This document shows positions 12,527 to 64,000 of a DNA stretch of 64,000 nt, piece by piece. Under the pieces are notes generated by a model, which was not told where the DNA came from, made no database searches, and worked only from the letters and a program-made list of their open reading frames with translations. This DNA is from Acidobacteriota bacterium (GTDB lineage: Bacteria; Acidobacteriota; Blastocatellia; RBC074). The position numbers and the translations under genes are program-made. The stretch is taken from positions 1 through 64,000 of the forward strand of contig JBBIWA010000022.1 of NCBI GenBank assembly GCA_037439425.1. The letters are read 5' to 3'. Each line of letters opens with the position of its first letter. Positions within the stretch are counted from its first letter, which is position 1.

Positions 12527-12529
12527 CTT

Positions 12530-15065: not shown

Positions 15066-15090
15066 CCGTATTCAAAGAAGCAACTTGGGC

Positions 15091-15525: not shown

Positions 15526-15674
15526 CGGAGATGATCTTAACGCCTTTCAGTCCATTTGTCAACTAATTCATAATGAGAATCATTATTATTTTGGACTAGA
15601 GACAGAAAAGCGGCTCCAGCCACCGGTCCGCTCCAGACCAGGCCGGAGCCGCACGCAGAATCGGGAGCTGATCT

Positions 15675-16022
15675 TTAGACCGTGAATGAGCTGCCGCAAC
15701 CGCAGCCGCCGGTCGCGTTAGGATTAGCAAAGGTAAAGCCCGAGCCCATTACGCTGCTGACGTAGTCAATCGTGACGCCGGAGAGGTATTGAGCGCTGAA
15801 CATATCTACAAAGACGCGCAACCCCTTAGTCTCAATAATCTCATCATTGGGGGCAGGGGCCTCTTCGATGTTCATCGCGTACTGGAAGCCAGAGCAGCCG
15901 CCCGGAACCACGCGCACGCGCAGGCCCCCCTGAGGGCCTGGATTCTCCATTTCCATAAACTTCTTGACTTCCTCCGCTGCCGTATCAGTCAGCGTGATTT
16001 GAAGGGTTGATGTTGCTTCCAT
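15675..16022 (-). CDS. erpA: Fe-S cluster insertion protein ErpA/IscA (HesB family)
   Basis: A-type carrier motifs: a conserved Cys (VVPGGCSGF) and the C-terminal CGCGSSF. Confidence 0.85.
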   Translation of the reverse strand: MEATSTLQITLTDTAAEEVKKFMEMENPGPQGGLRVRVVPGGCSGFQYAMNIEEAPAPNDEIIETKGLRVFVDMFSAQYLSGVTIDYVSSVMGSGFTFANPNATGGCGCGSSFTV

Positions 16023-16178
16023 TGTCCTTTCTCCTTTTACTTGTTCTTGAACCGATTGATTGCTGAAGTCATGGCCTCTGTCCCATCAACCGGGGCCAGA
16101 GTTAAGCCACAATAATGAAGACCGCACCGTCGCCCTGGCGAGCGCAAATCATATCTGGCCGGGGCTGCTTGGGTCAAC

Positions 16179-26545: not shown

Positions 26546-26826
26546 CTTGGGTACGCAAGCATCCTTGCGTGCCTGTCTTCGTCGAGCAAGTAATTACCTT
26601 CGGACCAAGCACGCTAGAAGCGTGCGTACCCAGGCTTAGAAAATCCCTGGGAGCGCACGCATCCTTGCGTGCCGGTCTAGTTAAGAGCGCAAATCCTGAG
26701 AATGCTGGGTCCGCACGCCGGAGGCGCGCCTGTCTTGGTGAAGCTGGTGCTTGCCTGCAAAGCGAGCACGCTCGCAAGCTTGCGTACCCAGGATTTTCGT
26801 TGCTCTCAGGGCGTCGCGCGAGCGAC
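26546..26826. repeat. Two adjacent MITE/REP-like elements (26546-26634 and 26646-26826) with terminal inverted repeats AAAATCYTGGGTACGCACGC / GCGTGCGTACCCAGG and internal GCACGC-loop-GCGTGC hairpins
   Basis: Seen directly. ORF-track ORFs across this region (26391..26777, 26440..26841) are translations of the repeat. Confidence 0.85.
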
Positions 26827-28619: not shown

Positions 28620-28967
28620 GTCGCTACGGCGACACACGGAAAGGATAAAAAAATCCTGAGAGCGTACGCTGCGAGCGTGCTTGGTCTGAAGATGACGACT
28701 CGCTTAATGGAAATAGGCACGCTCACAAGCGTGCTTGCTTTGCAGCATTGACGCGCTTGCCGCAAGTCGAGCACGCAAGGATGCGTGCGCTCCCAGGACC
28801 TTCCGAGGAGTCTTTCATCTCGCGTAGCGACGCCCAGAAAAATGATGAAAACCTGGGTACGCACGCTTGCGAGCGTGCCACTTTCTGGCGATAGCTCGCT
28901 CGTCGAAGCCAAGCACGCAAGGATGCGTGCGTACCAGCCAAGCACGCAAGGATGCGTGCGTACCCAG
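28620..28967. repeat. Two further copies of the MITE/REP-like element (about 28620-28796 and 28800-28967) in the divergent MFS / di-heme promoter region. The second carries a tandem duplication of the AAGCACGCAAGGATGCGTGCGTACC hairpin.
   Basis: Seen directly. Confidence 0.85.
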
Positions 28968-28987
28968 GAGTTTCCGAGGAGGACGAG

Positions 28988-37459: not shown

Positions 37460-38245
37460 TCACTTTTTGACCCGGTCGAAGAACTCTCGCTGCAGCTCCA
37501 ACGTCCTGGTATCGGCTTTAATGGCGCGCAAGGCTCTAGCCAGAGATTCAATCCGGTGCTCAGTGAGGACTTGACCCAGCTCGCGCGTAGCTTTGGCCCC
37601 TTCGCCAGCATAATGATTCGGGAAGCTGGCATACCACCAGATAGCAGTGTAGAGCTCAGGCAGAGCGAGCCGCTTCTGATTTTCTCCTGACTCCTGAGTC
37701 GCGCGATCCATCTGGACCAGGTCTGGACGCAGATAGAGCAGTGTCGAGGTCTCTCGCTCCCCAGCGTGCATATCGCCAGCAGGGTCCGATTTGCGCAGCG
37801 CCGTGATCTGTTCATTCAAAGCCGCGTCCGGCGCGGGCTCGAAGAGATAGACGACATAGTCGCGGCGGCGCTCGAGCTGCGATTGCATGAAGAAGCGCAG
37901 CAGGTTCGGGTTGCCACCGTGCCCGTTGATGATCAGAATTCTTTTGAAGCCGTTGCGCGCGATCTCCTCACAGGTGGCATCCAGCAGCTCCCACACCAGG
38001 CGCGAGGGCAAAGCAAAAGTGCCAGGTTGATGTTTGGCTTCTTAGATCTGACCGTAGAAGTAATCCGGGAAGACCACAGCATACTCTTTCTTGGTCGCGC
38101 GCGCCGCCCATTCGCGCAGGTGAATCAGGTCTGAGCCGATGGGCGCATGCGGGCCGTGCTTTTCCAGAATGCCGATGGGAAGAATACAAGTGTAATTGGA
38201 TCTCTCCAGCGCTGTAGGCCAATCGCTGGCTTTGACATCCTCCCC
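37460..38245 (-). pseudogene. Creatininase-family amidohydrolase, disrupted by an in-frame TAA (plus 38034-38036) with its 5' end abutting the IS605 right end
   Basis: A single frame reads ..ILPIGILEKHGPHAPIGSDL..YGQI*EAKHQPGTFALPS..ILIINGHGGN..GERETS. No start codon is found upstream of the ASDWPTALE region before the TnpB stop. Confidence 0.55.
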
Positions 38246-38248
38246 GGC

Positions 38249-39499
38249 CTAAAGGCCGGAGATTCCTACTGCACTGCAGGCGTGGCACCGAGCCCTGCCT
38301 GAGTCGCTTCGGTGGGTTCCTGCTGCTGGCGGCGTTATGCCGCTCACTTCACAGGCGCAACGGGCGTGCCCCGCCCTGAGAATGTTGATCGCGCCAACCA
38401 GATCGGCGTTGGCCTCAAACCCGCACTCGACACATTGGAACTGCGCTTGCGACGGGCGGTTGTCCGCTGAGACATGGCAGCAAGCTGGACAGGTGCGGCT
38501 CGTGTTCTGCGGCGGCACAGCAATCAGCCAGCCGCCCTTCCATGCCAGCTTGTATTCCAGTTGGCGGCGGAACTCGAACCAGCCTTGATCAAGGATGGAT
38601 TTGTTCAGGCCGGACTTGGCCCGAACGTTTCTGCCCGGCTCGACCAAGGTGCCCGCCGCTGACTGGGACATGTTGCGCACCTGCAAGTCCTCGATACACA
38701 CCATCGCGTGGTTTTGGCTGATCGTGGTCGTGGCTTTGTGCAGGAAGTCGCGGCGGGCGTTGCCGATGCGGGCGTGGATGCGCTGAACGCGGGCTTTGGC
38801 TTTCCTCCAGTTGTTGCTGAACTTCACCTTGCGGCCCATGGCCTGCTGCGCTTTACGCAAAGCAGTTTGATGCCGCCTGAAGCTGTTGATCGGCTCGATT
38901 ACTGTGCCGTCCGAGAGCGTGGCGAACCGCGCCACCCCCATGTCGATGCCGATTGCGCCGCCGTTGGGAATCGGCTGTTCGACCTCGCGTTCGGTCTGGA
39001 TCGATATGTACCACTTGCCACAGGACTGGCTCACGGTGACGTTCTTCACCGCGCCTAGCACCGCCCGGCTGTTGCGGTAACGCATCCAGCCGAGCTTAGG
39101 CAGGAAGAGGCGGCTGTTGTGCTGCTCCAGCTTGATCTGCTTCGGGTCGGGGTAGCGGAAGCTGTCGTGCCGCCCCTTCTTCTTGAAGCGCGGAAAGCCT
39201 GCCCGCTTGGCAAAGAAGTTGGCATAAGCCCTCTCCAAATCCTTGAGCGCCTGCTGCAACGGATGCACAGGCGCATCGGCCAGCCATGCCGTGTCCGGGC
39301 TGTTGCGCCACTCGGTGAGCAGCTGGCACAAGTCGGCATAGCCAAGCTTCTTCTCGCCCTTCTCGTGGCGTTCTTTTTGCAACGCCAGCGCCCGGTTGAA
39401 CACGAACCGGCACGAGCCAGCAAAGCGGCGCATCTGGTGCTCCTGCTGGCCGTTGGGCCGAAGCTCGAATTTGAAGGCTTGGAGCCGTTGCATGTCCAT
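38249..39499 (-). CDS. tnpB: TnpB (IS605 OrfB family RNA-guided endonuclease), apparently intact
   Basis: Start MDMQRLQAFKFELRP, RuvC-I IGIDMGV, RuvC-II CIEDLQV, zinc finger CPACCH..CVECGF, RuvC-III NADLVGAINI. Confidence 0.8.
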   Translation of the reverse strand: MDMQRLQAFKFELRPNGQQEHQMRRFAGSCRFVFNRALALQKERHEKGEKKLGYADLCQLLTEWRNSPDTAWLADAPVHPLQQALKDLERAYANFFAKRAGFPRFKKKGRHDSFRYPDPKQIKLEQHNSRLFLPKLGWMRYRNSRAVLGAVKNVTVSQSCGKWYISIQTEREVEQPIPNGGAIGIDMGVARFATLSDGTVIEPINSFRRHQTALRKAQQAMGRKVKFSNNWRKAKARVQRIHARIGNARRDFLHKATTTISQNHAMVCIEDLQVRNMSQSAAGTLVEPGRNVRAKSGLNKSILDQGWFEFRRQLEYKLAWKGGWLIAVPPQNTSRTCPACCHVSADNRPSQAQFQCVECGFEANADLVGAINILRAGHARCACEVSGITPPAAGTHRSDSGRARCHACSAVGISGL

Positions 39500-39514
39500 A
39501 GGATAGTTTGGGCT

Positions 39515-39930
39515 ATGAGCGAAGACAACGATATCCGATATGGACGGCACTGCGTTTTCAAGATGCACGTCCATTGGGTCTTTGTGACGAAATACCGCCG
39601 CAGGGTGTTCGACGGCGACGCTATCAACCGGCTGCGCACGATGAGCGCCCAAGGCCTGCGCCAACTTCGAAGCGCAACTGATCGAGATGGATGGCGAGGA
39701 CGATCATGTGCATTTGCTGGTCGAATATCCGCCGAAGGTGGCTGTCTCCAACCTGGTGAACAGCCTCAAGGGCGTGTCCAGCCGTCTGCTGCGCAAGGAG
39801 CGGGTCCGACATCTTGAAGCGCTACTGGAAGGGTGTGCTGTGGTCGCCGCCCTACTTCGCCTCATCCTGCGGCGGCGCTCCAATCTCCATCGTGCGCCAG
39901 TACATCGAACAGCAGCGGACGCCACACTGA
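39515..39930 (+). pseudogene. tnpA: IS200-type TnpA (Y1 transposase) with two +1 frameshifts (about 39665 and 39800)
   Basis: Frame 2: MSEDNDIRYGRHCVFKMHVHWVFVTKYRR. Frame 0: IEMDGEDDHVHLLVEYPPKVAVSNLVNSLKGVSSRLLRKE. Frame 1: ILKRYWKGVLWSPPYFASSCGGAPISIVRQYIEQQ. Confidence 0.75.
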
Positions 39931-40138
39931 AACCCAAGGACGCCTTCGCCGTCCGTGCTATCCTTCCCCGCCCTGAACGGCGAGGCTTGCCGCGCACCGG
40001 GTCAATTCATCCCACCGGGATGGCAATTCCTGCGCTGCCACACTACTCGTAAGCAACAGTAAAGTCATTAGCAGTTTCATCTCGGCACTCCTTTTGAAGA
40101 ATGGGATCACCAGTTGGGCTCCTCACCATTTTGTCAAA

Positions 40139-42908: not shown

Positions 42909-43034
42909 GAAAATCCTGGGTACGCACGCATCCTTGCGTGCCTGCCTTCGTTAAGCAAGCCATTACCGCAGAGCGAGCACGCTAGAAGCGTGCGCTCCCA
43001 GGTTTTCATCATTTCTGGGCGTCGCAGCGCGACA
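42909..43034. repeat. Complete copy of the MITE/REP-like element plus the conserved flank TTTTCATCATTTCTGGGCGTCGCAGCGCGAC
   Basis: Seen directly. The terminal inverted repeats GGAAAATCCTGGGTACGCACGC / GCGTGCGCTCCCAGG are present. Confidence 0.85.
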
Positions 43035-51943: not shown

Positions 51944-53185
51944 ATGACCAATCGCATTGCGCGCGCGGGCGTGACATTGCTGGCTTGCCTGACGCTAGCC
52001 TGCGCACAAACAACAGCTCCTTCAGGCACTGCTACACCTACCCCATCGAGTGGCGATCCGCTCTGGGAGCAGGCGATGAAGCTCCATCGCGAGGCCATCG
52101 TGGTAGATACTCATTCGGATACCACTTCGCTGATTCTCGACGAAGGCTTCGACATTGGCCAGCGCTCAACGCGCAGTCATATGGACCTGCCACGCATGAA
52201 AGAAGGCGGCCTGACGGCAGAGTTCTTCGCCGTTTTCGTTGACAAGGCCTTTGTCAAAGACAATCGCGCGGCCAATCGCGCACTGCAAATGATCGATGTG
52301 GTGCGCCACGACATCGTCGCCCGCTATCCGAACGATTTCATCCTCGCCACTTCGGTCGCTGACATTCGGCGCGCGAAGAAAGAAGGAAAGATTGCGGCGC
52401 TGATGGGTATCGAAGGTGGCCACGCCATTGAAGACAGCTTGCGCCTGCTACGCGCCTTTTATGATTTGGGCGTGCGCTACATGACGCTGACGCACTCGAA
52501 TACTAACAACTGGGCCGATTCCTCCGGCGATGCACCGCGCCACAACGGATTGACCGATTTCGGCAAGCAAGTTGTTCAGGAGATGAATCGTCTCGGGATG
52601 ATGGTAGACATCTCGCACGTTTCGGATAAAACTTTCTTCGATGTCATCGCTGTGACCAAAGCTCCGGTGATCGCTTCTCATTCTTCAGCGCGCGCGCTGG
52701 CCAATCATCCGCGTAATATGGGCGATGATATGTTGAAGGCCGTGGCGAAAAACGGTGGCGTGGTGATGGTCAATTTCTACCCAGTGTTTCTTGAGCAAGC
52801 GGTGCTTGACGCCGAGAAGAATCGTGACCCGAAAGTGAAGGCTCAGATTGAAGAGGCACAGAAAAAATACGCCGGAAACTGGGCCAAGCTTTCGGCTGAA
52901 TTGGCCAAGATAGATGCGTCTCATCCGCTCCCGCGAGCTACCTTGGCCACGCTCATCAAACACATCGATCACATCGCCAAGGTCGCGGGTGTTGATCACG
53001 TTGGCCTCGGCTCAGATTTCGATGGCATCCCCAGTGTGCCTGTCGGCATGGAGGACGTCTCCAAGCTGCCACACATCACCTATGAATTGCTCAAGCTCGG
53101 TTACAGCGAGCAGGAGATCAAGAAGATTTTGGGCGAGAATCTGCTGCGCGTGTTTGCTGAAGTCGAACGTATCAGCAAGCAGTAA
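51944..53185 (+). CDS. Membrane dipeptidase (peptidase M19), lipoprotein
   Basis: M19 pattern (VVDTHSDT, MGIEGGHA) and a lipobox. Confidence 0.85.
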   Translation: MTNRIARAGVTLLACLTLACAQTTAPSGTATPTPSSGDPLWEQAMKLHREAIVVDTHSDTTSLILDEGFDIGQRSTRSHMDLPRMKEGGLTAEFFAVFVDKAFVKDNRAANRALQMIDVVRHDIVARYPNDFILATSVADIRRAKKEGKIAALMGIEGGHAIEDSLRLLRAFYDLGVRYMTLTHSNTNNWADSSGDAPRHNGLTDFGKQVVQEMNRLGMMVDISHVSDKTFFDVIAVTKAPVIASHSSARALANHPRNMGDDMLKAVAKNGGVVMVNFYPVFLEQAVLDAEKNRDPKVKAQIEEAQKKYAGNWAKLSAELAKIDASHPLPRATLATLIKHIDHIAKVAGVDHVGLGSDFDGIPSVPVGMEDVSKLPHITYELLKLGYSEQEIKKILGENLLRVFAEVERISKQ

Positions 53186-53294
53186 GCAAGGAGGCTGACA
53201 ATCTCCTCATCTGGTGAATCTGAAGCTGCTGCTCACCACGAAGAGGGGCAGGCGCGAAGACGGTGCAAAGAAGTGTGCAGCAATCAAGCGCTGG

Positions 53295-55157
53295 CTACAG
53301 GGCACTATCTTTGATTAGCAGCTTGACGATGGCTTGCGCTGTGTGCTCTTCAGGCAGGAGGTGCACCTTCAGACCCTGAAGTCGCGCAGCTTCAGCCGTC
53401 ACCGGCCCGATGCAAGCGACGCGCGTCCCGGCCAGATAGGATTCGAGACTGTCGGTTTCAAGTAACGTCGCCAGATTGGTCACCGTCGAGGGGCTGGTGA
53501 AGATGATGTAATCGGCTCTGGCCTGACTTATCAGCTTGATGAGCTCTTCACTGCTGGTTGCCGGGATGACGGTCTGGTAGGCGGTCACCACATCTACCTG
53601 GACGCCGAATTTGTCGAGGGCGGGACGAATCACATTACGCGTCATGCTTGAGGCGGGCAGCAGCATGCGTGTGCCACGCAAACGCTGCCCCACCCCGTAA
53701 CGTTTGATAAATGCCTCGACCAGACTCTCAGCCGTGAAGCGAGCCGGAGTCAAATCCACGTGAATCCCCTCGCGGCTGAGCCGTTCGGCTGTCTTTCGTC
53801 CGACAGCGCAGACCCGGTAAGGAATCAATTCCGCGCGGCCCCGGCCCAGCTCGTCCATCCGGCGCAAGAAGAAATCCACTCCATTGGAGCTGGTGAAGAC
53901 AATCCAGTCGTAGCGCTTCAAGTTGGCGATGGCATCATCGAGCGCCGCCCAGCTCTCCGGTTCGCGAATCTCGATAGTCGGGCAAGCAATCACCTCAGCC
54001 CCGCTGATCTCCAGCAGACGGATTAACTCACCTGCCTGTTTGCTCGCCCGAGTGACGATCACCCGGCGCCCCGAGAGGGGGAGGGGGGGCGCGGTTGATA
54101 GGGGGGCGGCGTTTTCTTCCTCCTCCAAAGTAAATTTCTGGACGGAAGCAACGGCGCGCTCGCGCTCAAGCTCCGCTGGAGTGAGTGGAGCCGGGCTGGC
54201 TGATGATTGAGGCGCTCTGGTCTTCGCAAGCAGTTGGTGTGCGCCAGCAGCTAATAAACGGCGCGCTAGTAGCCAGCCCAGTTCATCACCTCTGTACTGA
54301 GGGCCTGTGACCTGATCGCGAACGATTTGATTGCCGGCCGCATCTGCGACCAGCGCCTTCAAGACAAGCTGACCATTTTGCCCCTCTCCTTCGATGTAAC
54401 CGTAAGCTGCCAATGGCACGGCGCAGCCGCCGCCGAGGCCGCGCAACACTGCTCGCTCGGCTTCAGTAGCATTGCGGGTGGGCCAATGATTGAGCGCTTC
54501 CAGAAGGAAGTTGGTCCGTTCATCCTCAATCCGCGTTTCGAGTCCGAGCGCGCCCTGACCGGCGGCTGGCAGCAGCAGCTCGGGATCAATTCGTTCAGTG
54601 ATCCGCTCGCCAAAGCCGAGGCGCAGGAGACCGGCTGAGGCCAGGATGATGGCATCGCAAGCCCCTTGGTCAAGTTTGCGCAGCCGGGTCTCGACGTTGC
54701 CTCGCAATTCAAGCAACTGCAAGTCCGGCCGAAGATGGCGCAACTGCGCGGCCCGACGCACACTGCTTGTGCCGACACGCGCGCCAGCAGGGAGCTGGCC
54801 GATTGAGTTGACGCGCCCTTGCAGATGAGGGCCGACCACCAGCGCATCGCGCGCATCTTCGCGTTCAGTGATCGCACACAGGTGTAGCCCTTCAGGCAGC
54901 GTCGTGGGCAGGTCTTTGAGACTGTGCACGGCCACGTCTATGCGGTGGTCAAGCAAGGCTTCTTCAATCTCTTTGGTGAAGACGCCTTTGCCGCTGATCT
55001 GGACAAGCGACGCTTCCGCCAGTTTATCGCCTGTGGTCTTGATGATTTCGATCGCGACCGTGATGGCCGGATGCAGACGTTCTAGCTCGGCCTTGATCCA
55101 GTTAGCCTGCCAGAGCGCGAGTCTGCTTCCACGTGAGCCGATGATGAGGGTTGGCAT
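53295..55157 (-). CDS. hemCD: Fused hydroxymethylbilane synthase (HemC) / uroporphyrinogen-III synthase (HemD)
   Basis: N-terminal HemC motifs ([21 protein letters not shown]). The C-terminal half is HemD-like. Confidence 0.85.
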
Positions 55158-55368
55158 AAGTCTCTCACGTCCTGATTAACGTAGTCTCTGAGTGAGTCTG
55201 AGCTTACCGTTTCTCGCCATTGAGCGCAATAAAAATCATGCGCTCCCGGCCTGTTGGAGCGGCGCTATCTCCCCTGCCGCCATTGCCGAGTGGCGCCATC
55301 TTTAGTTATAGTGGGCAACTTGCCGGGTCAGTCAGTTTCCCGAATGGAGAATCACGCGCAGCCAGAAC

Positions 55369-56343
55369 ATGCTTACCAACCAGATCAGCGGGACAGATTA
55401 TGTCAAAGAGGTGGTCGCACACATCCGCCAGGAAGTCCATAAAGTCATCGTCGGTCAAGACGAGGTCATTGATCAAATCTTAATCTGCCTCTTTGCTGAA
55501 GGGCACGCGCTGATTGAAGGTGTCCCGGGCACGGCCAAGACATTGATGGTCAAGACGCTGGCGCGGATTATCGGGGCGGCTTTCAATCGGATCCAGTTTA
55601 CGCCTGACCTGATGCCTTCCGACATCACGGGCACCAATGTCTTCAACCTAAGCACTTCACAATTCACCTTGCGCCACGGTCCTGTGTTTACTGACATTCT
55701 GCTGGCCGACGAGATCAATCGCACGCCGCCCAAGACTCAGGCAGCGCTGCTCGAAGCGATGGAGGAGCGTCAGGTCACTATTGATGGCGAAAGCTATCCG
55801 CTCTCACCGCTTTTTCTGGTACTGGCGACCGAAAACCCGATCGAGTATGAAGGGACCTACCCGCTGCCCGAAGCGCAGCTTGACCGGTTCTTGCTCAAGA
55901 TTTTGCTCACTTATCCGAACCTCGAACAGGAGCGCCAGATCGTTGCTAACTGGCAGGCCGGCTTCAATTCGCGCAAGCTGGATGCAGCGGGCATTCAACC
56001 GCTCAACGATCCAGCGGCGATCCCTCAGTGCCGGGCTTTCGTCCGGCGTGTGGTGGTTGACGCCAGCATCCAGAACTACCTGGTCGAGATCGTCCGCCAC
56101 ACGCGCCAGCATCCAAGCTTGCTCTGGGGTGCCAGCCCGCGCGCTTCTGTCGCTCTGCTGCTGGCATCTAAATCTCTGGCAGCCATGCGCGGGCGCGACT
56201 TCGCCACCCCTGATGATGTTCGGGATGTCGTGCATCCTGCGCTGCGCCATCGCATTCTGCTGCGGTCGGAAGCTGAAATCGAGGGTATCACTCCGGACCT
56301 GATCCTGGATGAGATCTTAGCTTCGGTGGAAGTCCCAAGATAA
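55369..56343 (+). CDS. MoxR-family AAA+ ATPase
   Basis: Walker A GVPGTAKT, Walker B LLADEINR. Confidence 0.9.
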
Positions 56344-56351
56344 TCAAGATA

Positions 56352-57665
56352 GTGATGATCTTCACAGGCCGCTTCTTCATTCTTTTTGCTCTGGGCGCGT
56401 TGCCGCTATGGCTGGCTTGGTCGCGCTCTGGCGTCCTCTGGGCAGTGATGGCCTATGACGTCGCGCTGTTGGCAATCGCCTATTTGGATTATCGCCGGGC
56501 TGAAGACCTTGCGGGCGTGGAAGTCAGGCGCACACGGTCGCAGCGGTTTATGATCGGCGAGGAGAATGAGGTGCGCATTGTCATTGCCAATCGTGCGCCG
56601 CGCAAAGTTACCTTTACGATCAAAGACGAATATCCACCGGAATTGGAGTTGCGTGGAGAGCGTTTGCTGCGAGCCACTCCTGAACGGAACGAAGCTGAGG
56701 TCAGTTATCGTTTGTTGGCCACTGCGCGGGGAGATTATCAGTTCGGCGATGTGGTCTTACGCTGGCCTTCGCCGTGGGGATTGGCAATCAGGCAAGGGCG
56801 TGTCCCAGCGGCGGAAAGCGTCAAGGTCTATCCTAATCTGAACGAGGCCAAAAAGCACGAGCTTTTCGCCCTGCGCAATCGCCACCGGATGGCTGGAGCG
56901 CGCCGCACCAGAGTGCGCGGGCAGGGCCGGGAATTCGAGAGCCTGCGCGATTACGTGCGTGGCGATGAGATGCGCCACATCTCGTGGACGGCCACGGCGC
57001 GGCGCGGCCGGCTGATCACCAAACAGTATCAGGTCGAGCGCAATCAAAGCATCGTGGTGATGCTTGATGCTGGGCGATTGATGACTTCGCGCATTGATCA
57101 ACTATCGAAGCTCGATCACGCCATCAACGCTGCGCTTGCGGTCGGCTATGTCGCCACGCACGGCGGTGACAATATCGGGCTGCTGGTCTTTACGCGGCAG
57201 GTGAATATTTACCTGCCGCCGCATCGCGGCCACGCGCAGATGCGAGCGATCATCGAGGCACTCTACAACATCAAGCCGCAGATGATCGAGCCGTCTTATG
57301 CGCGCGCCTTTCAATACTTCGCGCAGAATTGCAAACGCCGCTGCCTCGCCATCATTCTCACCGATCTGGTTGATCGTGAGGCTTCGGCCGAGCTGCTAGC
57401 TCACACGGCTACTTTGCTGCCCCGGCATCTACCCTTGGTCGTCACGATCGGTGATAAAGACTTGCGCGCGATTGCTTCGCAGGTGCCGCACGATGTTTCA
57501 GATGTCTACCGCCAAAGTGTGGCTGAAGAGCTGCTCCAACAGCGCGAAGAGGCATTGGCTCGCATTGCTGAACTGGGCGGTTTGGTGCTGGATGTGCCCG
57601 CCGGGCAATTGTCTTTTCAGCTGGTCAATCGGTATCTGGAGGTGAAGGAGCGTGGATTGTTATAG
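56352..57665 (+). CDS. DUF58 (vWA-like) protein, MoxR partner
   Basis: N-terminal TM segments and a DUF58/vWA region. Lies immediately downstream of moxR. Confidence 0.8.
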
Positions 57666-57761
57666 CCATTGTGGCGAACCCAAAACTTGTGGAGAATGAG
57701 TCTCCCCAGAGGAAGTGCCGAAATTCCTCTATCGTCACCAGAGTAGTGTTGAGCCCCTGCC

Positions 57762-59360
57762 TTATAACTCTCCCTCATACTCGGCTAATAGCACGCAGAT
57801 CTGATCGAAGATGCCACTCATCTCCGCGCCTGCGCCCGTGTAATTGTTCCCCATCAGACTAAAGATCAAAGTCTGGCCTCCTTTAGTTGTGAGGTAACCA
57901 GAGAGGGCGCGGACGTAGGTGAGGCTGCCGGTCTTGGCGCGCACATTGCCCGCCGCTGCCGTGTCGCGCATGCGAGTGCGGAGCGTGCCGTCTATGCCGG
58001 CTACAGGCAGCGAATTGCGGAAGACAGAAGCGTGCTCGTGCGCAGCCATAAACTCTAGCAAGCGTGAAGTCGCAAGCGGTGAGATGAGATTCTGGCGCGA
58101 CAGGCCCGATCCATCGCGAAGGCTGAGCGGTTGCGTGTCTATACCGGCCTTCTGGAGAAATTGCTTGAGTACCGCGATGCCGCGCGCTTCGGCCGATTGG
58201 GGGCGGCCATAATCATCCAGTTCGGCCGGTCCGCCGCACAACACGCCCAGCTGGCGCAGCAGGAGCTCCGTGTGCAAATTCTGGCTCGGTTTGTTAATGA
58301 CCTTAAGCAGTACCGCAAGAGGTTGAGACGAAAGGCTAGCAATCTCTTTCAGCCTGGTTTCATTCAGCGGCCGTTCGATGCGCGCGACTGCATCCACCCG
58401 ACGAATGCGGCCAGCGACGCGAATACCGCGCCGCGCGAGCGCTTCTTTGAGCAGTGTGGCAGCAAAGCTGGCCGGATCGTGAATGGCGATGTTGACCTGG
58501 AAAGGAGCGGCTCCGCGCGGGATCGTGCCGAAGAACTCTACTGTGTTGCTGCCCAAAGGGCGGTGAACGCCGATGCGCGTTTGTTCGCCAAGCGTCTTCG
58601 CGCGATTGATGATCCTGACGTAAGCTGTGCGGGGCCGCACCGTGATGGCGGGCGCTTGTCCTGCGTGGCGTGAAGGTGTGATCGTAAAGGTCACGGCATT
58701 GTCGTTGACTGTGAGCGCGCTCACTTCCGCGCCGTAATAAAATTGCGCATCATCCCACTCCCAGCCGCTACCCAGCCAGCCGGTGGCGAAGTAACTATCG
58801 TCGCCAATCAGGTCCCCAGTTACAAGCCTGATCCCACTCGCCTTGATTTGATCAGCAAGCGACTCGATGGCTGCTATCTTTTCCGCTGGTTTGAATTCTT
58901 CAAGCTGGTCTAAGCCTTGCTCGAAGCGCGCTGAGAGATTTGGATCGCCACGCCCGTAGAGGATCAAATTACCGTGCAGCACACCATTTCTGATGCGGCC
59001 ATCGGCATAAACCGACGTCCTGAATCTGAAATCGGGGCCGAAAGCATCGAGCGCTGCCGCCGTGGTGTAGAGCTTCATATTCGAGGCAGGCATAAAGAGC
59101 TTATCAGCATCGCGCTCGAAGATGATCTTCCCTTGCTCAGTCAGGATCCGCACACCCCAGCGCGCCGGAGCAAACTGCGGCTGGTCGAGCAGCGCCGCGA
59201 TGCGCGTTTGCAATTCGGCCAGCGTCTGTGGCTTGGGAGCAGGAGCTACTGCCTGCTGCGCCATGGTCGGCGCCAAAGCGAGTGAGACGAGCAGGACTGT
59301 GATGATGATTGGGGTGGCGAGGAAAGGGAGTTTATTGGGATATTTCATGCGTGATGACAA
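57762..59360 (-). CDS. dacB: D-alanyl-D-alanine carboxypeptidase/endopeptidase (PBP4, peptidase S13)
   Basis: SxxK motif (ASNMK) and a signal peptide. Confidence 0.85.
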
Positions 59361-59469
59361 ATTAACCAGAGTCTTTTTCTCGATCTGACCAGCCTGCCTG
59401 CGCGCTCACTGGCAGTAACATGCGCTCGGCCTTAGCAATCTCGCTATCGCCACGCAGATTGTAATTTTG

Positions 59470-61758
59470 CTATTGGCGCAAGAAGCGGAAGCTCAGTCCG
59501 AGGGTGAGTGTAATTGGATAGCCGGGCGTGCCGTGGATGCGCGCCACAACCGGATCACCCGGCCGCAGGCGCGACTCAAAGTAGTTCTGGGTCTCGTAGT
59601 ATCGCTTGTTGCCCAAGTTGTCTATCGAGAGATTGAAGTCTACTCCGCGCCTGATCTCTTTGGTCACGCTCAGGTCTAAAACATCAAAACCTGAAGCACG
59701 CACGGTCGGGTCTTCACCGTCCAGGCGATAGCTGCTGATGTGGCGATAGCGCAGCGAGGCGCTGAAACCGCGCCAGCCAGCGAGCGTGAGCGCCGCATTG
59801 GCGGTGAAATGTGGCGCGCTGTCTAGGTAAATCCTTGGCCCCGTGCCGCGAAAGAACGCGTTCATCACGCGCGTCAGCCCGCCATTGAAAGTCAAAGAGC
59901 GCGTGATGCGGAGCGAGCTTTTCACCTCAAACCCATAGGCGCGGCTGGGGCCTTTGAACTCGATGCTGCCATCATCTGGGACGTAGACCTGTTCGTTCGA
60001 CCGATCAATCAAAAACAGGTCCGTGGCGAGCGAGACGCGCTTGAAGTTGTGCGCAGTGCCCAGTTGGTAGAAATTAGTGCGTGAGATTTTGGGCCCTTCG
60101 GGTTTTTGGACGACGCCGCGCGCATCCTGGCTGGAGATGCCGCGCCCGTAGTTGAAATAGATCGTAAGCGGCAGGCGATCAGAAGGCGTCACCGCAAGGT
60201 TGAATTTCGGCTGCAGTTGCGAAGCTCCCTGCGCGCCCGCAAGCTGCGGATCAACTTTGTCCTCAACCTGGAAACGGAAGTAATCGTAGCGCAATCCACC
60301 TTCCAGGTGCAGATGACCGCGCCATAGCTCCAGGCTTTGCTGTGCATAGCCAGCCGTATTGGTCACATGCGCATTGGCTTTGGTAACACTGCTTCGAGGC
60401 ACACGCCCGAGTGAACGAAACAATCCGACGTTGATCTGGTTGTCGTGGAAATTGGCGCCCACCACTATCAGCGCGCGCTGTCCGAAGAGTTGATACGGGA
60501 GCAGATACTGCACATTAGCCCCTTCCTGCAAACGCGAATCGTGCTGCTGAATCTCGTCACCGTTCACTTCGTCGTTCAGGAAGAAAGTGAAGTTCGAGTA
60601 GAGGTCGAACAGCGAACGCGCGACGAAGCCGTCGAGTTTGAAGATGGAGCCTTGGCTCGACTCCCTTTTGAAGTAGGCGCTGAAGACTCCGCTGCGCATG
60701 CGCCCACCATTGTCGGGGTCAATGAAGCCGAAGCGATCAAGTCGTCCTGCCGCCACTTCGTCCAGCGGGATCTGGCCTGAGGAAGAGAAATCGTTGCGCC
60801 CGAAGTTGAACTTGAACCCGAGCATGGCGTCTGGCCGCAATCGTCGAATGTAGTTGCCCGTCACATTGTCGCGCTTGTAGCGCAGCGGATTTTTGAACGG
60901 CCCATCCGTGCGCGAGCTCTCATAGGCAATCAGAGCATTATCATTCTTCAACTCTGGACTGTAGGCGAGAAATGAGCGGAAGCTGCCAAACGAGCCGCTT
61001 TGCAAGCGCGCGGTCAGTTGATCAGGCAGGCGCTCTTTCAAGCGAATGTGCACCACGCCCAGGCCGGAAAAGTCACCGTACTGGGCGCTGAATGGCCCAT
61101 TGAGAATCTCTACCGCCTCGACCAGCTCTGGCGAGAGGCTTTTTAACTGGCCGAGGTAGCCCTGACCGTGGCCTTGCGTGCCTTGATTCTGCTGGACGTT
61201 GTCAAGGAGCACCTTCAAGCCGCCGCTTACACCGCCGTGATCGAGATTGAAGCCGAAGCGGCGGATCTCTAACGATTTGCCCCCGCCTTCGTGTTGCCCC
61301 GCATTGATGCCCGCATCGAGCGTATGAAAGACCTGATCATCGCGCGCAAAGAGCGTGTTGCGATAAATAGCATCGTTGCGCCGATTAATACTCGGATCAA
61401 GCTGCGCAGCCGTGATGACCAAGCTTTCGTGGATGGGCGCAATGAGGTATTCAATCTCAAAGCGCAGATTTTCTGCGGCCTCGCCTTTGCCTATCACTCT
61501 TTCCTGCACCGCAACATTTTTGCCCTCAATTCTCACACTGAGCGGTTCGTCGGGAACCGTCAGGCGAAACTCACCTTCGCTATCGCTCACGGTTTTTTGT
61601 TCGCCAGCGGAAGAGCGGACAATCACCGAAACTCCAGCCACCGCTTCATTCTTCGGAGTCACGATGGTGCCAGAGAGAGTGCGAGTAGTGTTGGTCTGCG
61701 CTCCGACCTGGCCACAGACAAAGACAGACAGCAACAGAGAGTGTAGACAACGTTTCAT
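59470..61758 (-). CDS. TonB-dependent receptor with N-terminal carboxypeptidase-regulatory-like domain
   Basis: Signal peptide, CarboxypepD_reg-like region, plug motif (ILNGPFSAQYGDFSGLGVV), beta-barrel. Confidence 0.85.
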   Translation of the reverse strand: MKRCLHSLLLSVFVCGQVGAQTNTTRTLSGTIVTPKNEAVAGVSVIVRSSAGEQKTVSDSEGEFRLTVPDEPLSVRIEGKNVAVQERVIGKGEAAENLRFEIEYLIAPIHESLVITAAQLDPSINRRNDAIYRNTLFARDDQVFHTLDAGINAGQHEGGGKSLEIRRFGFNLDHGGVSGGLKVLLDNVQQNQGTQGHGQGYLGQLKSLSPELVEAVEILNGPFSAQYGDFSGLGVVHIRLKERLPDQLTARLQSGSFGSFRSFLAYSPELKNDNALIAYESSRTDGPFKNPLRYKRDNVTGNYIRRLRPDAMLGFKFNFGRNDFSSSGQIPLDEVAAGRLDRFGFIDPDNGGRMRSGVFSAYFKRESSQGSIFKLDGFVARSLFDLYSNFTFFLNDEVNGDEIQQHDSRLQEGANVQYLLPYQLFGQRALIVVGANFHDNQINVGLFRSLGRVPRSSVTKANAHVTNTAGYAQQSLELWRGHLHLEGGLRYDYFRFQVEDKVDPQLAGAQGASQLQPKFNLAVTPSDRLPLTIYFNYGRGISSQDARGVVQKPEGPKISRTNFYQLGTAHNFKRVSLATDLFLIDRSNEQVYVPDDGSIEFKGPSRAYGFEVKSSLRITRSLTFNGGLTRVMNAFFRGTGPRIYLDSAPHFTANAALTLAGWRGFSASLRYRHISSYRLDGEDPTVRASGFDVLDLSVTKEIRRGVDFNLSIDNLGNKRYYETQNYFESRLRPGDPVVARIHGTPGYPITLTLGLSFRFLRQ

Positions 61759-61836
61759 CCTGCTTCTCTAAAGAGACATCCGTTCAATCAACCAGTAGCC
61801 ACCTGCCAGGGCAATCAGCAGAGAACTCCCAGGCAC

Positions 61837-61912
61837 ATCCAATTGCGAATTGCGGATTGCGAATTTTGGATTCGGAATTACTGCCTTCTTTCAATTCGCA
61901 ATTCGAAATTGG
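61837..61912. repeat. Inverted pair of GAATTGC-heptamer arrays (caattgcgaattgcggattgcgaatt ... aattcgcaattcgaaatt) around a 35-nt spacer
   Basis: Seen directly. It is the same motif as at 308-349. Confidence 0.8.
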
Positions 61913-63125
61913 TGTATGAAGGTCGCTTCCTCGATTGCCAGATCAAGGGAAGAACCAAAGCTGCTATCGCGATTTGTCCCAATTCTACTCCGAGATTGAA
62001 GGAAAGCAAGGGCAGCGCTACGCTACTGCCATCTGAACTCAGACCCAGCTCGCCGAACACGGTCGCAAAGCCGAAGCTAGGCACCAGACCAAAGGCGAAG
62101 GTCAACAGCCAGCTATGTTTCAACTCACCTTACCAGATATGCGGCCCCTGGGAGCGCACGCATCCTGCGTGCCAGGCTCTCACGCAGGATTGCCTCCAAG
62201 CCACAGGGCTGCTCCCCCGAAGATCAGCACGCAAGATGCTTGCGCTCCCAGGGCGACCACATCCAAAAAGTCTCCTTACCGAAAAAGCCTCATTGGTGGC
62301 CGCACGAAATATATTTTCCAGCCCGGCGTAGATGATTGAGATGGCAATCAGCGGCTCGATCACTTCTGGCGGAATCCGCATCAGGTCCAAGGTGGCCAGC
62401 GCTAGCGTGAGCGAATGGGCCAGCGTGAATTATGTGCTGACCCTCACGGCGGATCGAAAGTGGCTGCCCGCAAGCAACAGGGCCAACAGAAAGGCCAGGT
62501 GATCGTATCCGGTCAGAATGTGCTCGACACCAAGAACCAAAAACTGCTGGAAGGAGCGAGGCCGGGCAGCGGCTGCTCGCAGTTGCGCCAGATTGCCTTC
62601 AAATCCGTCTTGGCTGGAATCGAGCAATCGCTCGGCCAGGACGCTTCCCTGCCCCTCGCGCACCGAAAGATGCTGCCGGTGGCCGCGCGCCAGCTTGTGA
62701 ATGATCGTTGAGCGTAAGCTGAGCTGCGTTGCCTTGCCAGGGAATTTCAAAAAGAAATGAAGAGCATTGCTATCATCAAACTGCACTCGCACTTCGCTGG
62801 CCAGTACGCGCTGCCCATCGAACTGGATTTCAATTGCCTCCGCCGCCAACCTCGCCAGCCGTGATTGCGCAGCCGCCAATTCAGTTTGGGCGAGCTGTCG
62901 GTTCTGATTGGTGTCTGGCAGGATCAACGTTTCAATCTCACTCCGAGCGAAGGTGAGATGCGCAGCCAGATGATCTTGTTTCACTCGCAGCTCAACCCCA
63001 CTCAATACTGGATCGTGCGCCAAGGCTGTGGCGACTGCCAGGAAGAGAAAGACAAGCAACAAGCAGACAAAGGGAGCAAAGCTGCTCGGCGTGAACTGCT
63101 CGGCTTGATTATGGGCGTGGCGCAT
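61878..63125 (-). pseudogene. HupE/UreJ-family membrane protein, disrupted by two in-frame TAA stops (62430-62432, 62130-62132) and a 105-bp in-frame MITE-like insertion
   Basis: One frame contains HILTGYDHLAFLLALLLAG, FTLAHSLTLALA, IEPLIAISIIYAGLEN and FNLGVELGQIAIAALV across three ORF-track ORFs. Confidence 0.6.
62148..62252. repeat. MITE/REP-like element copy (CCTGGGAGCGCACGC...GCGCTCCCAGG) inside the hupE reading frame
   Basis: Seen directly. The length is 105 bp, which is 35 codons. Confidence 0.8.
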
Positions 63126-63276
63126 GGTTTCTTGGCTGGAGCGGGAAACACCAAAGTCAGGCGCTCAAGCGCGGAATTTTTGCTACCTCAGTCCCCTTCG
63201 ACCGCGGCCCGAAAATGGTAACGCTTCGACAAAGACCGCCCGTAGCATCGCCTCAGAAGTATGCTCTTTCTTGTAA

Positions 63277-63610
63277 GGTCGGCATCGCGTCGCTATAGAT
63301 AAGCCGCTCCTGAGCGCAGCTGAAAAACGTGCGCTGCTGCCTGCTATCAACAGCTCGCTCCTCACGGAGCTGAAAAGCGTCCGACAGAGGTTCCTACAGC
63401 CCCAGCGGGGCGACCTGTCTATAGCAAGTGGTGAAGGAAAGTAAGCCTAGCTGCAGTTAGGAGCGACCTATTAATCGCTGCTCATAGCTCGTTCCTGCCC
63501 GTAGCTGAAGACTTTCCGCATCGCGTCGCTCTAGATAGGCCGCTCCTAACGGAACAGAGCGATCTCTCAATCAATGCCCAGAGCTCGCTCCTACTACGGC
63601 CAGGCACTTG
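63277..63610. repeat. Irregular cluster of degenerate roughly 25-bp hairpin repeats (AGCTCGCTCCTNACGGAGCTGAA) and a 28-bp direct repeat (GCATCGCGTCGCTNTAGATARGCCGCTCCT)
   Basis: Seen directly. Spacing (55/130/95) and identity are irregular. Confidence 0.6.
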
Positions 63611-63637
63611 CCCCGTTGTGGCAGCAACTCGACTCCC

Positions 63638-64000
63638 TCACGCTGCTTTCTTCGCTGCGGCGGCTTTCCCGCGCCGAATTTGCATTTCGTTGAGCAAGTA
63701 GCCTGCGCCAGCGAACTTATCGGTAATGAACAGCACGTAGCGAATGTCTACCGCGATAGTGCGCGATAGCGCTGGATTGTAGACATAATCGCTGCCGAGC
63801 CCTTCGTAGTTGCCATCAAAGACCAGCCCGATAATTTCCCCGCGCCCGTTCATCAGCGGGCTGCCAGAGTTGCCGCCCGTGATGTCGGTTGTGGCAATGA
63901 AATTGGCCGGCACATCGTTGAGGCGCGGGTCAATATAATCGCCGAAATCCTTCTTCGCACGCAGCTCTTTGAGTTTGGCCGGCACATCGAACGGTTCTTC
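63638..64000 (-). CDS. S46-family dipeptidyl-peptidase, C-terminal part (gene continues beyond window end)
   Basis: TGGNSGSP catalytic-Ser motif and the C-terminal [17 protein letters not shown]. Confidence 0.75.

What the first reader, a model, noticed from the sequence alone, without database searches (positions are those of the whole stretch)
61878..63125. HupE/UreJ transporter gene inactivated by an in-frame 105-bp repeat-element insertion plus two TAA nonsense codons
One reading frame carries all the HupE/UreJ hallmarks (GYDHLAFLLALLLAG, FTLAHSLTL, IEPLIAISIIYAGLEN, FNLGVELGQ). It is broken by TAA at 62430-62432, positioned exactly between the LLLAG and FTLAHS motifs. The MITE-like copy at 62148-62252 is exactly 35 codons long. 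A further TAA lies at 62130-62132. This is the only element copy inside a gene, which argues that the element was, or is, mobile. It also suggests loss of a nickel/cobalt uptake function.
Basis: partly seen in the sequence, partly recalled or inferred. Interest (0 to 1): 0.6.

Follow-up and report, generated by a model that had tools for sequence, protein, structure and literature searches.

The report
Decayed metal-permease gene hit by REPIN
This is a dead copy of a metal-uptake membrane protein gene, broken by a point nonsense mutation and by two small palindromic repeat insertions, one of them a REP doublet (REPIN) of the kind moved by RAYT transposases; it is a clear but ordinary example of gene decay.

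Summary
On the minus strand, one frame from ATG 63125 carries all the HupE/UreJ motifs (Pfam HupE_UreJ_2, E=2e-39). It has TAA codons at 62430-62432 and 62130-62132.

Comparison with 119 intact homologues (365-375 aa) changes several details:
- The first TAA replaces an invariant Ser, encoded by TCA/TCC/TCG in nine relatives' loci, so one C>A change from TCA would suffice.
- The extra DNA is 174 bp (62130-62303), not 105 bp. Only its 108-bp core (62146-62253) is the repeat element.
- The gene does not end at 61878. A second, heptamer-repeat palindrome adds 65 nt net at 61840-61910 and shifts the frame. The true last helix and TAG stop lie at 61839-61768.
- The otherwise invariant His-Gly of GLxHGFGFA reads Pro-Ser.

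The element is a REP doublet (REPIN-like). There are seven doublets in the window, and the other six lie between genes. More than 120 soil-metagenome stretches hold the same REP. In two contigs it flanks RAYT transposase genes.

[quoted passage not shown] The metal is unknown, so loss of Ni/Co uptake is not supported. The usual upstream partners (TPR, DUF4331) are missing.

Verdict: a genuine pseudogene, a new member of known kinds, of modest interest.

The parts
61768..63125 (-). Full extent of the pseudogene (anglerase-HupE/UreJ-2 permease). It is 1358 bp. Removing 174 bp and 65 bp leaves 1119 bp, i.e. 372 codons plus a stop, which matches the 365-375 aa of intact homologues.
   Evidence: tblastn of 14 intact homologues gives three collinear pieces: 63125-62304 and 62126-61911 in frame -3, and 61872-61771 in frame -2. 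Arithmetic. Pfam.
63015..63125 (-). Start codon, predicted signal peptide (ending ...VATALA) and the invariant His37 (63015-63017). His37 would be the first residue of the mature protein (motif HDPxLS).
   Evidence: Translation. H, D, L and S are invariant in the 15-sequence alignment and P and G in at least 90% of its sequences; G is invariant in the 119 homologues, where this gene has Val. An N-terminal His after the signal peptide defines anglerase domains (PMC12537917). The cleavage site is inferred, not predicted with a tool.
62430..62432 (-). TAA nonsense codon at codon 232. It replaces the invariant Ser of the ITSFTxAHS motif in a transmembrane helix.
   Evidence: Alignment. The Ser codon is TCA, TCC or TCG in nine relatives' loci, so one C>A change from TCA suffices.
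62130..62303 (-). A 174-bp (58-codon) in-frame segment absent from all homologues. It lies in the short loop between two transmembrane helices and ends with an in-frame TAA (62130-62132).
   Evidence: The structure model of syntenic orthologue P0002 places the site in loop 270-275, between helices 249-269 and 276-297.
62146..62253 (.). REP doublet (REPIN-like core). The arms are 62146-62172 and 62227-62253 (CCTGGGAGC-GCACGC-ATCCT-GCGTGC and its inverse), with a 54-nt spacer.
   Evidence: Inverted repeat. It folds as one long hairpin, -74.6 kcal/mol, z=-7.9. Full-length homology to doublets in L154, L095, L144 and L157 stops at 62146/62255. The left arm is identical to the REPs flanking the RAYT gene in L096.
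62254..62303 (.). 50 bp of inserted DNA that is not part of the REP doublet. With 62130-62145 this makes 66 bp of unknown origin. The first ~9 bp extend the hairpin stem.
   Evidence: No match elsewhere in the window or in 80 metagenome loci. Stem extension seen.
62076..62081 (-). Pro-Ser codons where 119 homologues have invariant His-Gly (GLxHGFGFA motif).
61840..61910 (.). Second insertion. 71 nt stand where homologues have 6 nt, a net gain of 65 nt, which shifts the frame.
   Evidence: Fold -23.4 kcal/mol, z=-3.8. A related heptamer array lies at 314-347, and a similar heptamer palindrome occurs in L106.
61768..61839 (-). Remnant of the last transmembrane helix (DVPGSSLLIALAGGYWLIERMSL) and the original TAG stop, now out of frame with the rest of the gene.
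   Evidence: It matches the homologue C-terminus xVPACSxLIALAGGYWLIERTxLx.
59470..61758 (-). Intact downstream TonB-dependent receptor gene, the syntenic operon partner. It starts 9 nt after the pseudogene's original stop.
   Evidence: 73% identical to the receptor that follows the intact orthologue in L085. Pfam families listed.

Best explanation
**What it was.** The locus is the decaying remnant of a gene for an inner-membrane metal permease of the HupE/UreJ-2 family. The permease was fused to a periplasmic N-terminal-His metal-capturing ('anglerase') domain. It once formed part of a TPR-DUF4331-permease-TonB-receptor uptake cluster.

**What is left.** In this genome the upstream partners are gone. 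The permease gene has accumulated at least four independent inactivating changes:
- a Ser-to-TAA nonsense change (one C>A step if the ancestral codon was TCA);
- a 174-bp insertion into a short inter-helix loop, whose core is a REP doublet (REPIN);
- a 65-nt net insertion of a heptamer-repeat palindrome, which shifts the frame of the last helix;
- replacement of an invariant His-Gly by Pro-Ser.

**How the element got there.** The REP doublet belongs to a family that is normally extragenic. It is inferred to be mobilised in trans by a RAYT (REP-associated tyrosine transposase), an IS200-like single-strand 'peel and paste' enzyme that leaves no target-site duplication.

**Shown versus inferred.**
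- Shown: the lesions, their absence from homologues, the family membership of the repeat, and its association with RAYT genes in related contigs.
- Inferred: that a RAYT moved this particular copy, the order of the events, and that loss of the upstream partners relaxed selection on the gene.
For: **Gene identity and lesions**
- Pfam HupE_UreJ_2 E=2e-39; 4562 homologues, with intact ones of 365-375 aa.
- Three collinear tblastn pieces in two frames.
- Ser codons TCA/TCC/TCG in relatives.
- Loop length is 13 aa in 112 of 117 homologues against 71 here; C-terminal spacing is 25 aa in 106 of 107.
- The window sequence is the sole deviant at 5 columns invariant in 119 homologues, more than any other sequence.
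- It is slightly but consistently more divergent than its nearest relatives, by 1.4-4 percentage points in 65-97% of outgroup comparisons.
- All lesions are reproduced in an independent assembly.

**Context**
- The orthologous locus L085 reads DUF4331-globin-60 aa-HupE_UreJ_2-TonB receptor-...-Peptidase_S13.
- The window keeps the receptor (73% identity) and the S13 peptidase (73%) but has no DUF4331 or globin.
- DUF4331 sits directly upstream in all Blastocatellia loci with enough flank.

**Repeat element**
- Seven doublets in the window, and the other six lie between genes.
- More than 120 metagenome stretches hold the REP.
- 42 doublets across the window and the metagenome loci (37 metagenomic), in size classes of about 71, 84-88 and 104-108 bp, with sharp CCTGGG...CCCAGG ends; 39 of 42 do not lie in long open frames.
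- RAYT genes are flanked by the identical REP in L096 and L110. NCBIfam REP_Tyr_transpos scores 103.6 and 79.8 bits (cutoff 80), and both hit Pfam Y1_Tnp.

**Architecture**
- AlphaFold model of the orthologue: pLDDT 86, a signal helix, a beta-sandwich and 7 helices.
- The best PDB match is 9gce, the Cu-bound Ang-1 domain of a HupE/UreJ-2 protein, followed by the Zn-binding ZrgA and PA4063.
Against: - 66 of the 174 inserted bases are not REP doublet and match nothing available. Simple REPIN transposition therefore does not account for the whole insert.
- No RAYT gene is in the window, and the rest of the source genome was not available.
- The REP lacks the classical GTAG or CGTC tag; the bases next to the stem are GAGC or GTAC.
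- Overall divergence of the gene from its orthologue (56%) is about what intact orthologues show relative to their receptors (58% against 73% in L007). Decay is therefore recent, or the rate evidence is weak.
- No expression data exist. The 231-codon N-terminal ORF is still open.
Confidence: 0.85

Rival explanations
1. The 174-bp block was not placed by REPIN transposition. It was copied or recombined from another REPIN-bearing intergenic locus, by illegitimate recombination, template switching or repair synthesis, and brought about 66 bp of donor flank with it. The gene is still a pseudogene; only the route of insertion differs.
For: - 66 bp flanking the doublet have no counterpart in other copies of the element, whose homology ends sharply at CCTGGG/CCCAGG.
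- The flank contains an RBS-like AAGGAG followed by ATG, typical of intergenic DNA.
- A 9/10 direct repeat GGTAAGG[A/T]GA lies at 62268-62277 and 62126-62135. It could be microhomology.
Against: - No donor sequence was found in the window or in 80 metagenome loci.
- Removing the DNA between the direct repeats would shift the frame (143 bp), so the repeat is not a clean junction.
- The doublet itself is well preserved, and its left arm is identical to the RAYT-flanking REPs.
Confidence: 0.25
2. The truncated 231-codon N-terminal ORF (63125-62433) is still expressed. It would work as a stand-alone, membrane-anchored periplasmic metal-binding protein made of the signal peptide, the anglerase domain and the first helices, analogous to the free-standing ZrgA and PA4063 proteins.
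For: - The ORF is open for 231 codons and keeps His37-Asp-Pro.
- The same fold occurs as independent periplasmic Zn-binding proteins.
- The downstream TonB receptor is intact.
Against: - The otherwise invariant Gly next to His-Asp-Pro is Val here (G40V).
- No promoter-like site was found.
- No family of such truncated proteins was seen. The 231-aa protein is a singleton cluster.
- The multiple downstream lesions look like neutral decay.
Confidence: 0.08
3. The stops and insertions are sequencing, assembly or binning artefacts, or a minority allele, and the organism has an intact gene.
For: The source appears to be a draft or MAG-type contig of 69,917 bp. REP-rich regions break assemblies; the Logan contig ends at 63225, in a repeat-rich stretch.
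Against: - Two independent assemblies are 100% identical across all lesions.
- There are at least four independent lesions of different kinds, plus 5 unique substitutions at invariant sites.
- The insertions are shorter than typical reads, and each is flanked by unique sequence.
Confidence: 0.04
4. The repeat-encoded segment is a tolerated in-frame decoration, like Rickettsia RPEs or the intragenic REPs of Opitutus terrae. The gene would function through stop-codon readthrough or recoding.
For: - The 174 bp keep the frame.
- In-frame intragenic REPs in apparently functional genes are documented (PMC3733652).
Against: - There are three in-frame TAA codons and a +65-nt frameshift.
- The invariant His-Gly is lost.
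- There is no evidence of TAA reassignment; the neighbouring genes are ordinary ORFs with normal homologue lengths.
Confidence: 0.02

Closest known systems
Anglerase-HupE/UreJ-2 permeases (Ang-1/Ang-2 fused to Pfam PF13795; Nat Commun 2025, PMC12537917; PDB 9gce)
   Same: - Signal peptide, then an invariant His as the first mature residue.
- A periplasmic beta-sandwich of about 150 aa, then a HupE/UreJ-2 helical domain.
- The model of the syntenic orthologue finds 9gce as its best PDB match.
- The motifs EHILxGxDH and FTxAHS are present.
   Different: - No sequence-level match to the solved Ang-1 domain. Structural similarity is moderate (TM 0.44 on the target, 14% identity), so this is probably a third, acidobacterial/verrucomicrobial Ang type.
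- It is embedded in a TPR-DUF4331-...-TonB-receptor cluster.
- The copy here is a pseudogene.
- The metal specificity is unknown.
HupE/UreJ nickel/cobalt permeases (PF04955; e.g. Rhizobium leguminosarum HupE, cited in PMC12537917 ref. 26)
   Same: A weak but above-threshold PF04955 hit (31 bits, cutoff 23) and the shared His/Asp-rich first-helix motif.
   Different: - The best family is PF13795 (135 bits).
- The protein has an extra 190-aa N-terminal domain.
- No hydrogenase genes, urease genes or Ni/Co/B12 riboswitch are nearby.
- Ni/Co specificity cannot be transferred to it.
REPINs / REP doublets mobilised by RAYTs (Bertels & Rainey 2011, PMC3116915; Di Nocera et al. 2013, PMC3733652)
   Same: - Two short palindromic REPs in inverted orientation, 20-100 bp apart, folding into one long hairpin.
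- Many copies, nearly all extragenic.
- The same REP flanks RAYT genes (L096, L110).
- No target-site duplication.
- Occasional intragenic copies are known.
   Different: - The tag next to the stem is GAGC or GTAC, not GTAG or CGTC.
- The host is probably a Blastocatellia acidobacterium rather than a proteobacterium.
- This copy is accompanied by 66 bp of unrelated DNA and helps to kill the gene.
Rickettsia palindromic elements (RPEs) and other in-frame intragenic palindromic repeats
   Same: A palindromic repeat inserted into a coding region with the reading frame preserved across the insertion.
   Different: RPE-bearing genes stay open and are presumed functional. Here the insert ends in a stop codon and the gene has further lesions.

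Membership tests
HupE/UreJ-2 (Pfam PF13795) | Profile HMM match above the curated threshold | tested here: met
   135.1 bits against a cutoff of 24.5, E=2.2e-39, in two stretches split by the insertion.
HupE/UreJ-2 (Pfam PF13795) | Conserved metal-ligand motifs: EHILxGxDH (helix 1), FTxAHSxTL (helix 3) and GLxHGxGFA | tested here: not met
   The first two are present (VEHILTGYDH, FTLAHSLTL). The third reads GLVPSFGFA, where His-Gly is invariant in 119 homologues.
HupE/UreJ-2 (Pfam PF13795) | Uninterrupted ORF encoding all transmembrane helices | tested here: not met
   There are three in-frame TAA codons and one frameshift. It is a pseudogene of the family, not a functional member.
Anglerase-HupE/UreJ-2 architecture (PMC12537917) | His as the first residue after the signal peptide, then a periplasmic metal-binding beta-sandwich, then the permease domain | tested here: met
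   ALA|HDP, with His invariant. The model of orthologue P0002 (pLDDT 86) matches 9gce Ang-1 at E=1.6e-4. Signal-peptide cleavage is inferred from the AxA motif only.
Nickel/cobalt HupE/UreJ permease (PF04955, functional class) | Genomic link to [NiFe]-hydrogenase, urease or a Ni/Co/B12 regulatory element | tested here: not met
   None found among about 50 window ORFs scanned. No Rfam hit in 61500-64000. The rest of the genome was not available.
REPIN (REP doublet) | Two REPs in inverted orientation with a short spacer, folding as one hairpin | tested here: met
   Arms of 27 nt, 93% complementary, 54-nt spacer. Fold -74.6 kcal/mol, z=-7.9.
REPIN (REP doublet) | Multi-copy family with defined ends, predominantly extragenic | tested here: met
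   7 doublets in 64 kb. More than 120 metagenome stretches hold the REP. The 42 doublets (window plus metagenome loci) have sharp ends, and 39 of 42 lie outside long open frames.
REPIN (REP doublet) | Cognate RAYT gene flanked by the same REP | tested here: inconclusive
   Met in related contigs L096 and L110 (REP_Tyr_transpos 79.8 and 103.6 bits). No RAYT is in the window. The source genome outside the window is not testable.
REPIN (REP doublet) | GTAG (or CGTC) tetranucleotide tag at the foot of the REP (Di Nocera 2013) | tested here: not met
   The bases next to the stem are GAGC or GTAC. A separate GTAG-tagged REP family does exist in the window, at 287-307, 349-369 and 5273-5293, with a degenerate GTCG copy at 5207-5227.
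   Inverted repeats are present, but no clean duplication is. The 7-10 bp direct repeat GGTAAGG lies outside the element, and excision between its copies (143 bp) would break the frame.

The most novel reading that the evidence does not exclude
A RAYT/REPIN system with a non-GTAG REP (CCTGGGAGC-GCACGC-N5-6-GCGTGC) is active in Blastocatellia-type soil acidobacteria. This copy would record a rare intragenic transposition in which the mobile unit carried about 66 bp of non-REP DNA. That would imply that REPIN mobilisation can transduce flanking sequence, or that the true element ends lie outside the hairpins as in IS200/IS605.
Probability: 0.15. Interest if true: 0.45.

Novelty: new member of a known kind. 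Interest (0 to 1): 0.3.

Why it matters
- It gives a clean, datable example that this REP-doublet family has inserted into new sites in an acidobacterial lineage, because syntenic orthologues lack the insert. It also links the family to RAYT genes, which extends REPIN/RAYT biology beyond the well-studied proteobacteria.
- It corrects a tempting annotation. The gene is an anglerase-HupE/UreJ-2 permease of unknown metal specificity, not a nickel/cobalt transporter.
- Its decay goes together with loss of the upstream TPR-DUF4331 partners of a conserved but uncharacterised uptake cluster.
- For genome annotation, the 231-aa ORF called in public databases is a pseudogene fragment.

Tried and rejected
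- **Target-site duplication.** The only candidate is GGTAAGG (9/10 over 10 nt) at 62268-62277 and 62126-62135. Its copies are 143 bp apart, so excision would shift the frame. It also lies outside the element ends defined by other copies. Rejected as a TSD.
- **TTAC target, IS608-like.** CCTTAC occurs 13 nt from the REP here and 16 nt from it in L096. It is not noticeably enriched in the flanks of the other doublets printed (judged by eye, not counted). Dropped.
- **Origin of the 66 non-REP bases.** blastn-short against the window and 80 metagenome loci found nothing.
- **Native-loop hypothesis.** Rejected by the loop-length distribution.
- **Closer orthologue with an intact gene.** None exists. 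The best is 56% identical, and the 231-aa fragment is a singleton cluster.
- **Source genome.** No organism names came from the cluster look-up. SRR11582143 is not in the paper library.
- **Remnants of DUF4331 or globin upstream.** None, even at E<=50.
- **Regulatory elements.** No promoter-like sites were found, and the four terminator-like matches are within what shuffled sequence gives (mean 2.2, sd 1.3). There is no Rfam family.
- **PDB by sequence.** No hit. The fold search was needed.
- **Literature on DUF4331.** No papers.
- **RAYT in the window.** The only Y1 transposase is a frameshifted IS200-type tnpA next to tnpB, not a RAYT.
Full report
**1. Observation**

The gene lies on the minus strand. 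It has TAA at 62430-62432 (codon 232) and at 62130-62132 (codon 332). Pfam gives HupE_UreJ_2 at E=2.2e-39 and a weak HupE_UreJ hit. A search of 5.8 billion proteins returns 4562 homologues, and the intact ones are 365-375 aa long. The only exact match is the 231-aa N-terminal fragment, from an NCBI contig of 69,917 bp and a Logan assembly. The Logan contig from run SRR11582143 is 100% identical to window 52430-63204, all lesions included. An assembler artefact is therefore unlikely.

**2. What the alignment with intact homologues shows**

- **Nonsense codon.** Codon 232 is Ser in all 14 aligned homologues (ITSFTxAHS). Nine relatives' loci encode it with TCA, TCC or TCG, so a single C>A change from TCA gives TAA.
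- **First insertion.** Between ...GLENIFR and GELKHSWLLTFAFGL the window carries 58 extra codons, 62130-62303, 174 bp. The spacing between these motifs is 13 residues in 112 of 117 homologues and never more than 19; here it is 71.
- **Second insertion and true gene end.** That missing last helix, DVPGSSLLIALAGGYWLIERMSL followed by TAG, is encoded at 61839-61768 in a different frame. Between ...RKRPSYT and DVPGSS there are 71 nt (61840-61910) where the homologues have 6 nt. The net gain is 65 nt, which is a frameshift. The TAA at 61878-61880 lies inside this second insertion.
- **Length check.** 1358 - 174 - 65 = 1119 bp, i.e. 372 codons plus a stop, exactly the family length.
- **Substitutions at conserved sites.** The window sequence is the sole deviant at five columns that are otherwise invariant in 119 homologues: G40V, R>S, H>P and G>S in GLxHGFGFA, and L>F. 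No other sequence has more than three. It is slightly but consistently more divergent from outgroups than its nearest relatives.

**3. Context**

The best homologue, P0002, is the syntenic orthologue. Its locus reads DUF4331, globin, a 60-aa gene, HupE_UreJ_2, a TonB-dependent receptor of 763 aa, then further on Peptidase_S13. The window keeps the receptor (73% identity) and the S13 peptidase (73%). It has no DUF4331, globin or TPR gene anywhere, and no remnants upstream. Instead there is a 500-bp stretch of local repeats, followed by a Peptidase_S46 gene.

In the genome loci of Blastocatellia and Verrucomicrobiota, TPR-DUF4331-HupE_UreJ_2(-TonB receptor) is a recurrent cluster. The permease here has lost its usual partners, which plausibly relaxed selection on it. 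That last step is inference.

The gene's 56% identity to its orthologue is similar to the identity seen between intact orthologues (58% in L007, where the receptors are 73% identical). The decay is therefore probably recent.

**4. The first inserted element**

- **Structure.** The core, 62146-62253, is an inverted repeat of two REP units (CCTGGGAGC-GCACGC-ATCCT-GCGTGC) separated by 54 nt. It folds into one long hairpin, -74.6 kcal/mol, z=-7.9.
- **Other copies in the window.** Six further doublets of the same family lie at about 14958-15048, 26546-26634, 26646-26792, 28717-28797, 28852-28968 and 42915-43002. All are between genes once the true starts are considered.
- **Copies elsewhere.** Most matches are +/- pairs.
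- **Doublet census.** I extracted 42 doublets from those loci and the window together, 37 of them metagenomic. They have sharp CCTGGG...CCCAGG ends and size classes near 71, 84-88 and 104-108 bp.
- **Position relative to genes.** 39 of the 42 do not lie in long open frames.
- **Element boundaries.** Full-length homology of the hupE copy to doublets in L154, L095, L144 and L157 ends at 62146 and 62255.
- **RAYT association.** In L096 and L110 the same REP, identical over 26-30 nt to the left arm here, flanks genes for REP-associated tyrosine transposases. NCBIfam REP_Tyr_transpos scores 79.8 and 103.6 bits against a cutoff of 80, and both hit Pfam Y1_Tnp. The motifs NHVH, WQ and YIxxNP are present.

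This is the REPIN/RAYT arrangement described by Bertels & Rainey (PMC3116915) and Di Nocera et al. (PMC3733652). The latter also document occasional intragenic REPs.

Two points differ from the classical picture. The tag next to the stem is GAGC or GTAC, not GTAG or CGTC. And no RAYT is present in the window.

**5. What remains unexplained**

Sixty-six of the 174 inserted bases (62130-62145 and 62254-62303) are not part of the doublet. They match nothing in the window or in the fetched loci.

A 9/10 direct repeat, GGTAAGG[A/T]GA, brackets 143 bp. It is not a clean duplication, because excision between its copies would break the frame.

IS200/RAYT-type elements are not expected to make duplications, from established knowledge of that family. 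The flanks may be co-mobilised donor DNA, recombination filler, or decayed sequence. I could not discriminate between these.

**6. The second inserted element**

Positions 61840-61910 form a palindrome of AATTGCG-type heptamers, with arms 61839-61859 and 61892-61912. It folds at -23.4 kcal/mol, z=-3.8. A related heptamer array lies at 314-347, and a similar heptamer palindrome is in metagenome contig L106. It looks like a second small repeat family. How it moves is unknown.

**7. What the protein was**

An AlphaFold model of the orthologue P0002, built from a 60-sequence alignment, has pLDDT 86 and pTM 0.81. It shows a signal helix, a beta-sandwich (residues 37-175) and seven helices. On this model:
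- the REPIN insertion site is the short loop at 270-275;
- the nonsense codon falls in helix 219-241;
- the frameshift removes helix 340-368.

Foldseek against the PDB puts 9gce first (E=1.6e-4). This is the Cu-bound Ang-1 domain of a HupE/UreJ-2 protein. The Zn-binding ZrgA and PA4063 follow. There was no sequence-level PDB hit.

[quoted passage not shown] It proposes metal capture and hand-over to the permease (PMC12537917). The window protein has ...ALA|HDP..., with the His invariant in homologues.

The metal is not known. No hydrogenase gene, urease gene or Ni/Co/B12 riboswitch is in the window. 'Loss of a periplasm-to-cytoplasm transition-metal permease of unknown specificity' is the defensible statement.

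**8. Verdict**

This is a genuine, multiply hit pseudogene.
- the size of the insert;
- the gene's end;
- the number of lesions;
- the inferred metal.

The finding is a new member of known kinds: a pseudogene, a REPIN insertion and an anglerase-HupE/UreJ-2 permease. Interest is modest. It comes mainly from documenting a RAYT-linked, non-GTAG REP family in probable Blastocatellia, caught inside a gene, and from the unexplained 66-bp passenger sequence.

Noticed in passing
window 38249-40052: An IS200/IS605-type element. tnpB is intact (471 aa; OrfB_IS605 plus Cas12f1-like TNB; minus strand, 38249-39664). The divergent IS200-like tnpA (about 39560-40052, plus strand) is broken by at least two frameshifts: the motifs HVHWVFVTKYRRRVF, DDHVHLLVEYPP and YIEQQ sit in three different frames.
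   Followed up: partly
window 37460-38011 (-): This ORF matches only positions 86-238 of the Creatininase profile. It is possibly a truncated gene next to the IS element. The N-terminal part was not found in ORF 37968-38288.
   Followed up: partly
window 287-307, 349-369, 5207-5227, 5273-5293: A second REP-like family, GTAGCCA..GTGAGACTC followed by a hairpin. Three of the four copies carry the classical GTAG tag, and 5207-5227 reads GTCG. Four copies against none expected by chance.
   Followed up: partly
window 314-347: A tandem array of the heptamer ATTGCGA (3-4 units), lying between two direct copies of the GTAG-tagged repeat. It belongs to the same heptamer family as the palindromic insert in the pseudogene.
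   Followed up: partly
window 63225-63600: A repeat-rich 500-bp spacer upstream of the pseudogene, where orthologous loci carry the DUF4331 and globin genes. It has a 33-bp direct repeat (63279-63311 and 63515-63547) and an inverted repeat (63456-63471 and 63535-63550). There are no other copies in the window or the fetched loci. The independent Logan contig ends at about 63225, at its edge.
   Followed up: partly
window 28852-28968 and 42915-43002 (also 28771-28797): Several REP doublets abut ribosome-binding sites. The sequence ...CCCAGGAGTTTCCGAGGAGGACGAGATG or its reverse complement places the doublet 10-20 nt upstream of a GAGGAGG-ATG start. Two copies share a further flank, TTTTCATCATTTyTCTGGGCG. 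Some family members may therefore be longer, or may affect translation initiation.
   Followed up: no
window 11942-17267: A cluster of iron and redox housekeeping genes: DUF3501, a CCG-domain protein, rubrerythrin, a Dps/ferritin-like protein, Fur, an Fe-S biosynthesis protein and a NUBPL/ParA-type Fe-S carrier. A REP doublet lies between fur and the dps-like gene (14958-15048).
   Followed up: no
L096 4540-4780: Next to the RAYT gene, the REP and a degenerate second arm form a tandem repeat of about 92 bp. The RAYT C-terminus overlaps a REP, and a partial duplicate of the RAYT 5' end lies at 5506-5571.
   Followed up: no
L003, L004, L005, L008, L023, L025, L028, L036, L082-L085: TPR-DUF4331-(globin)-HupE_UreJ_2-(TonB receptor) is a conserved gene cluster across Acidobacteriota and Verrucomicrobiota. 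No paper in the library mentions DUF4331.
   Followed up: partly
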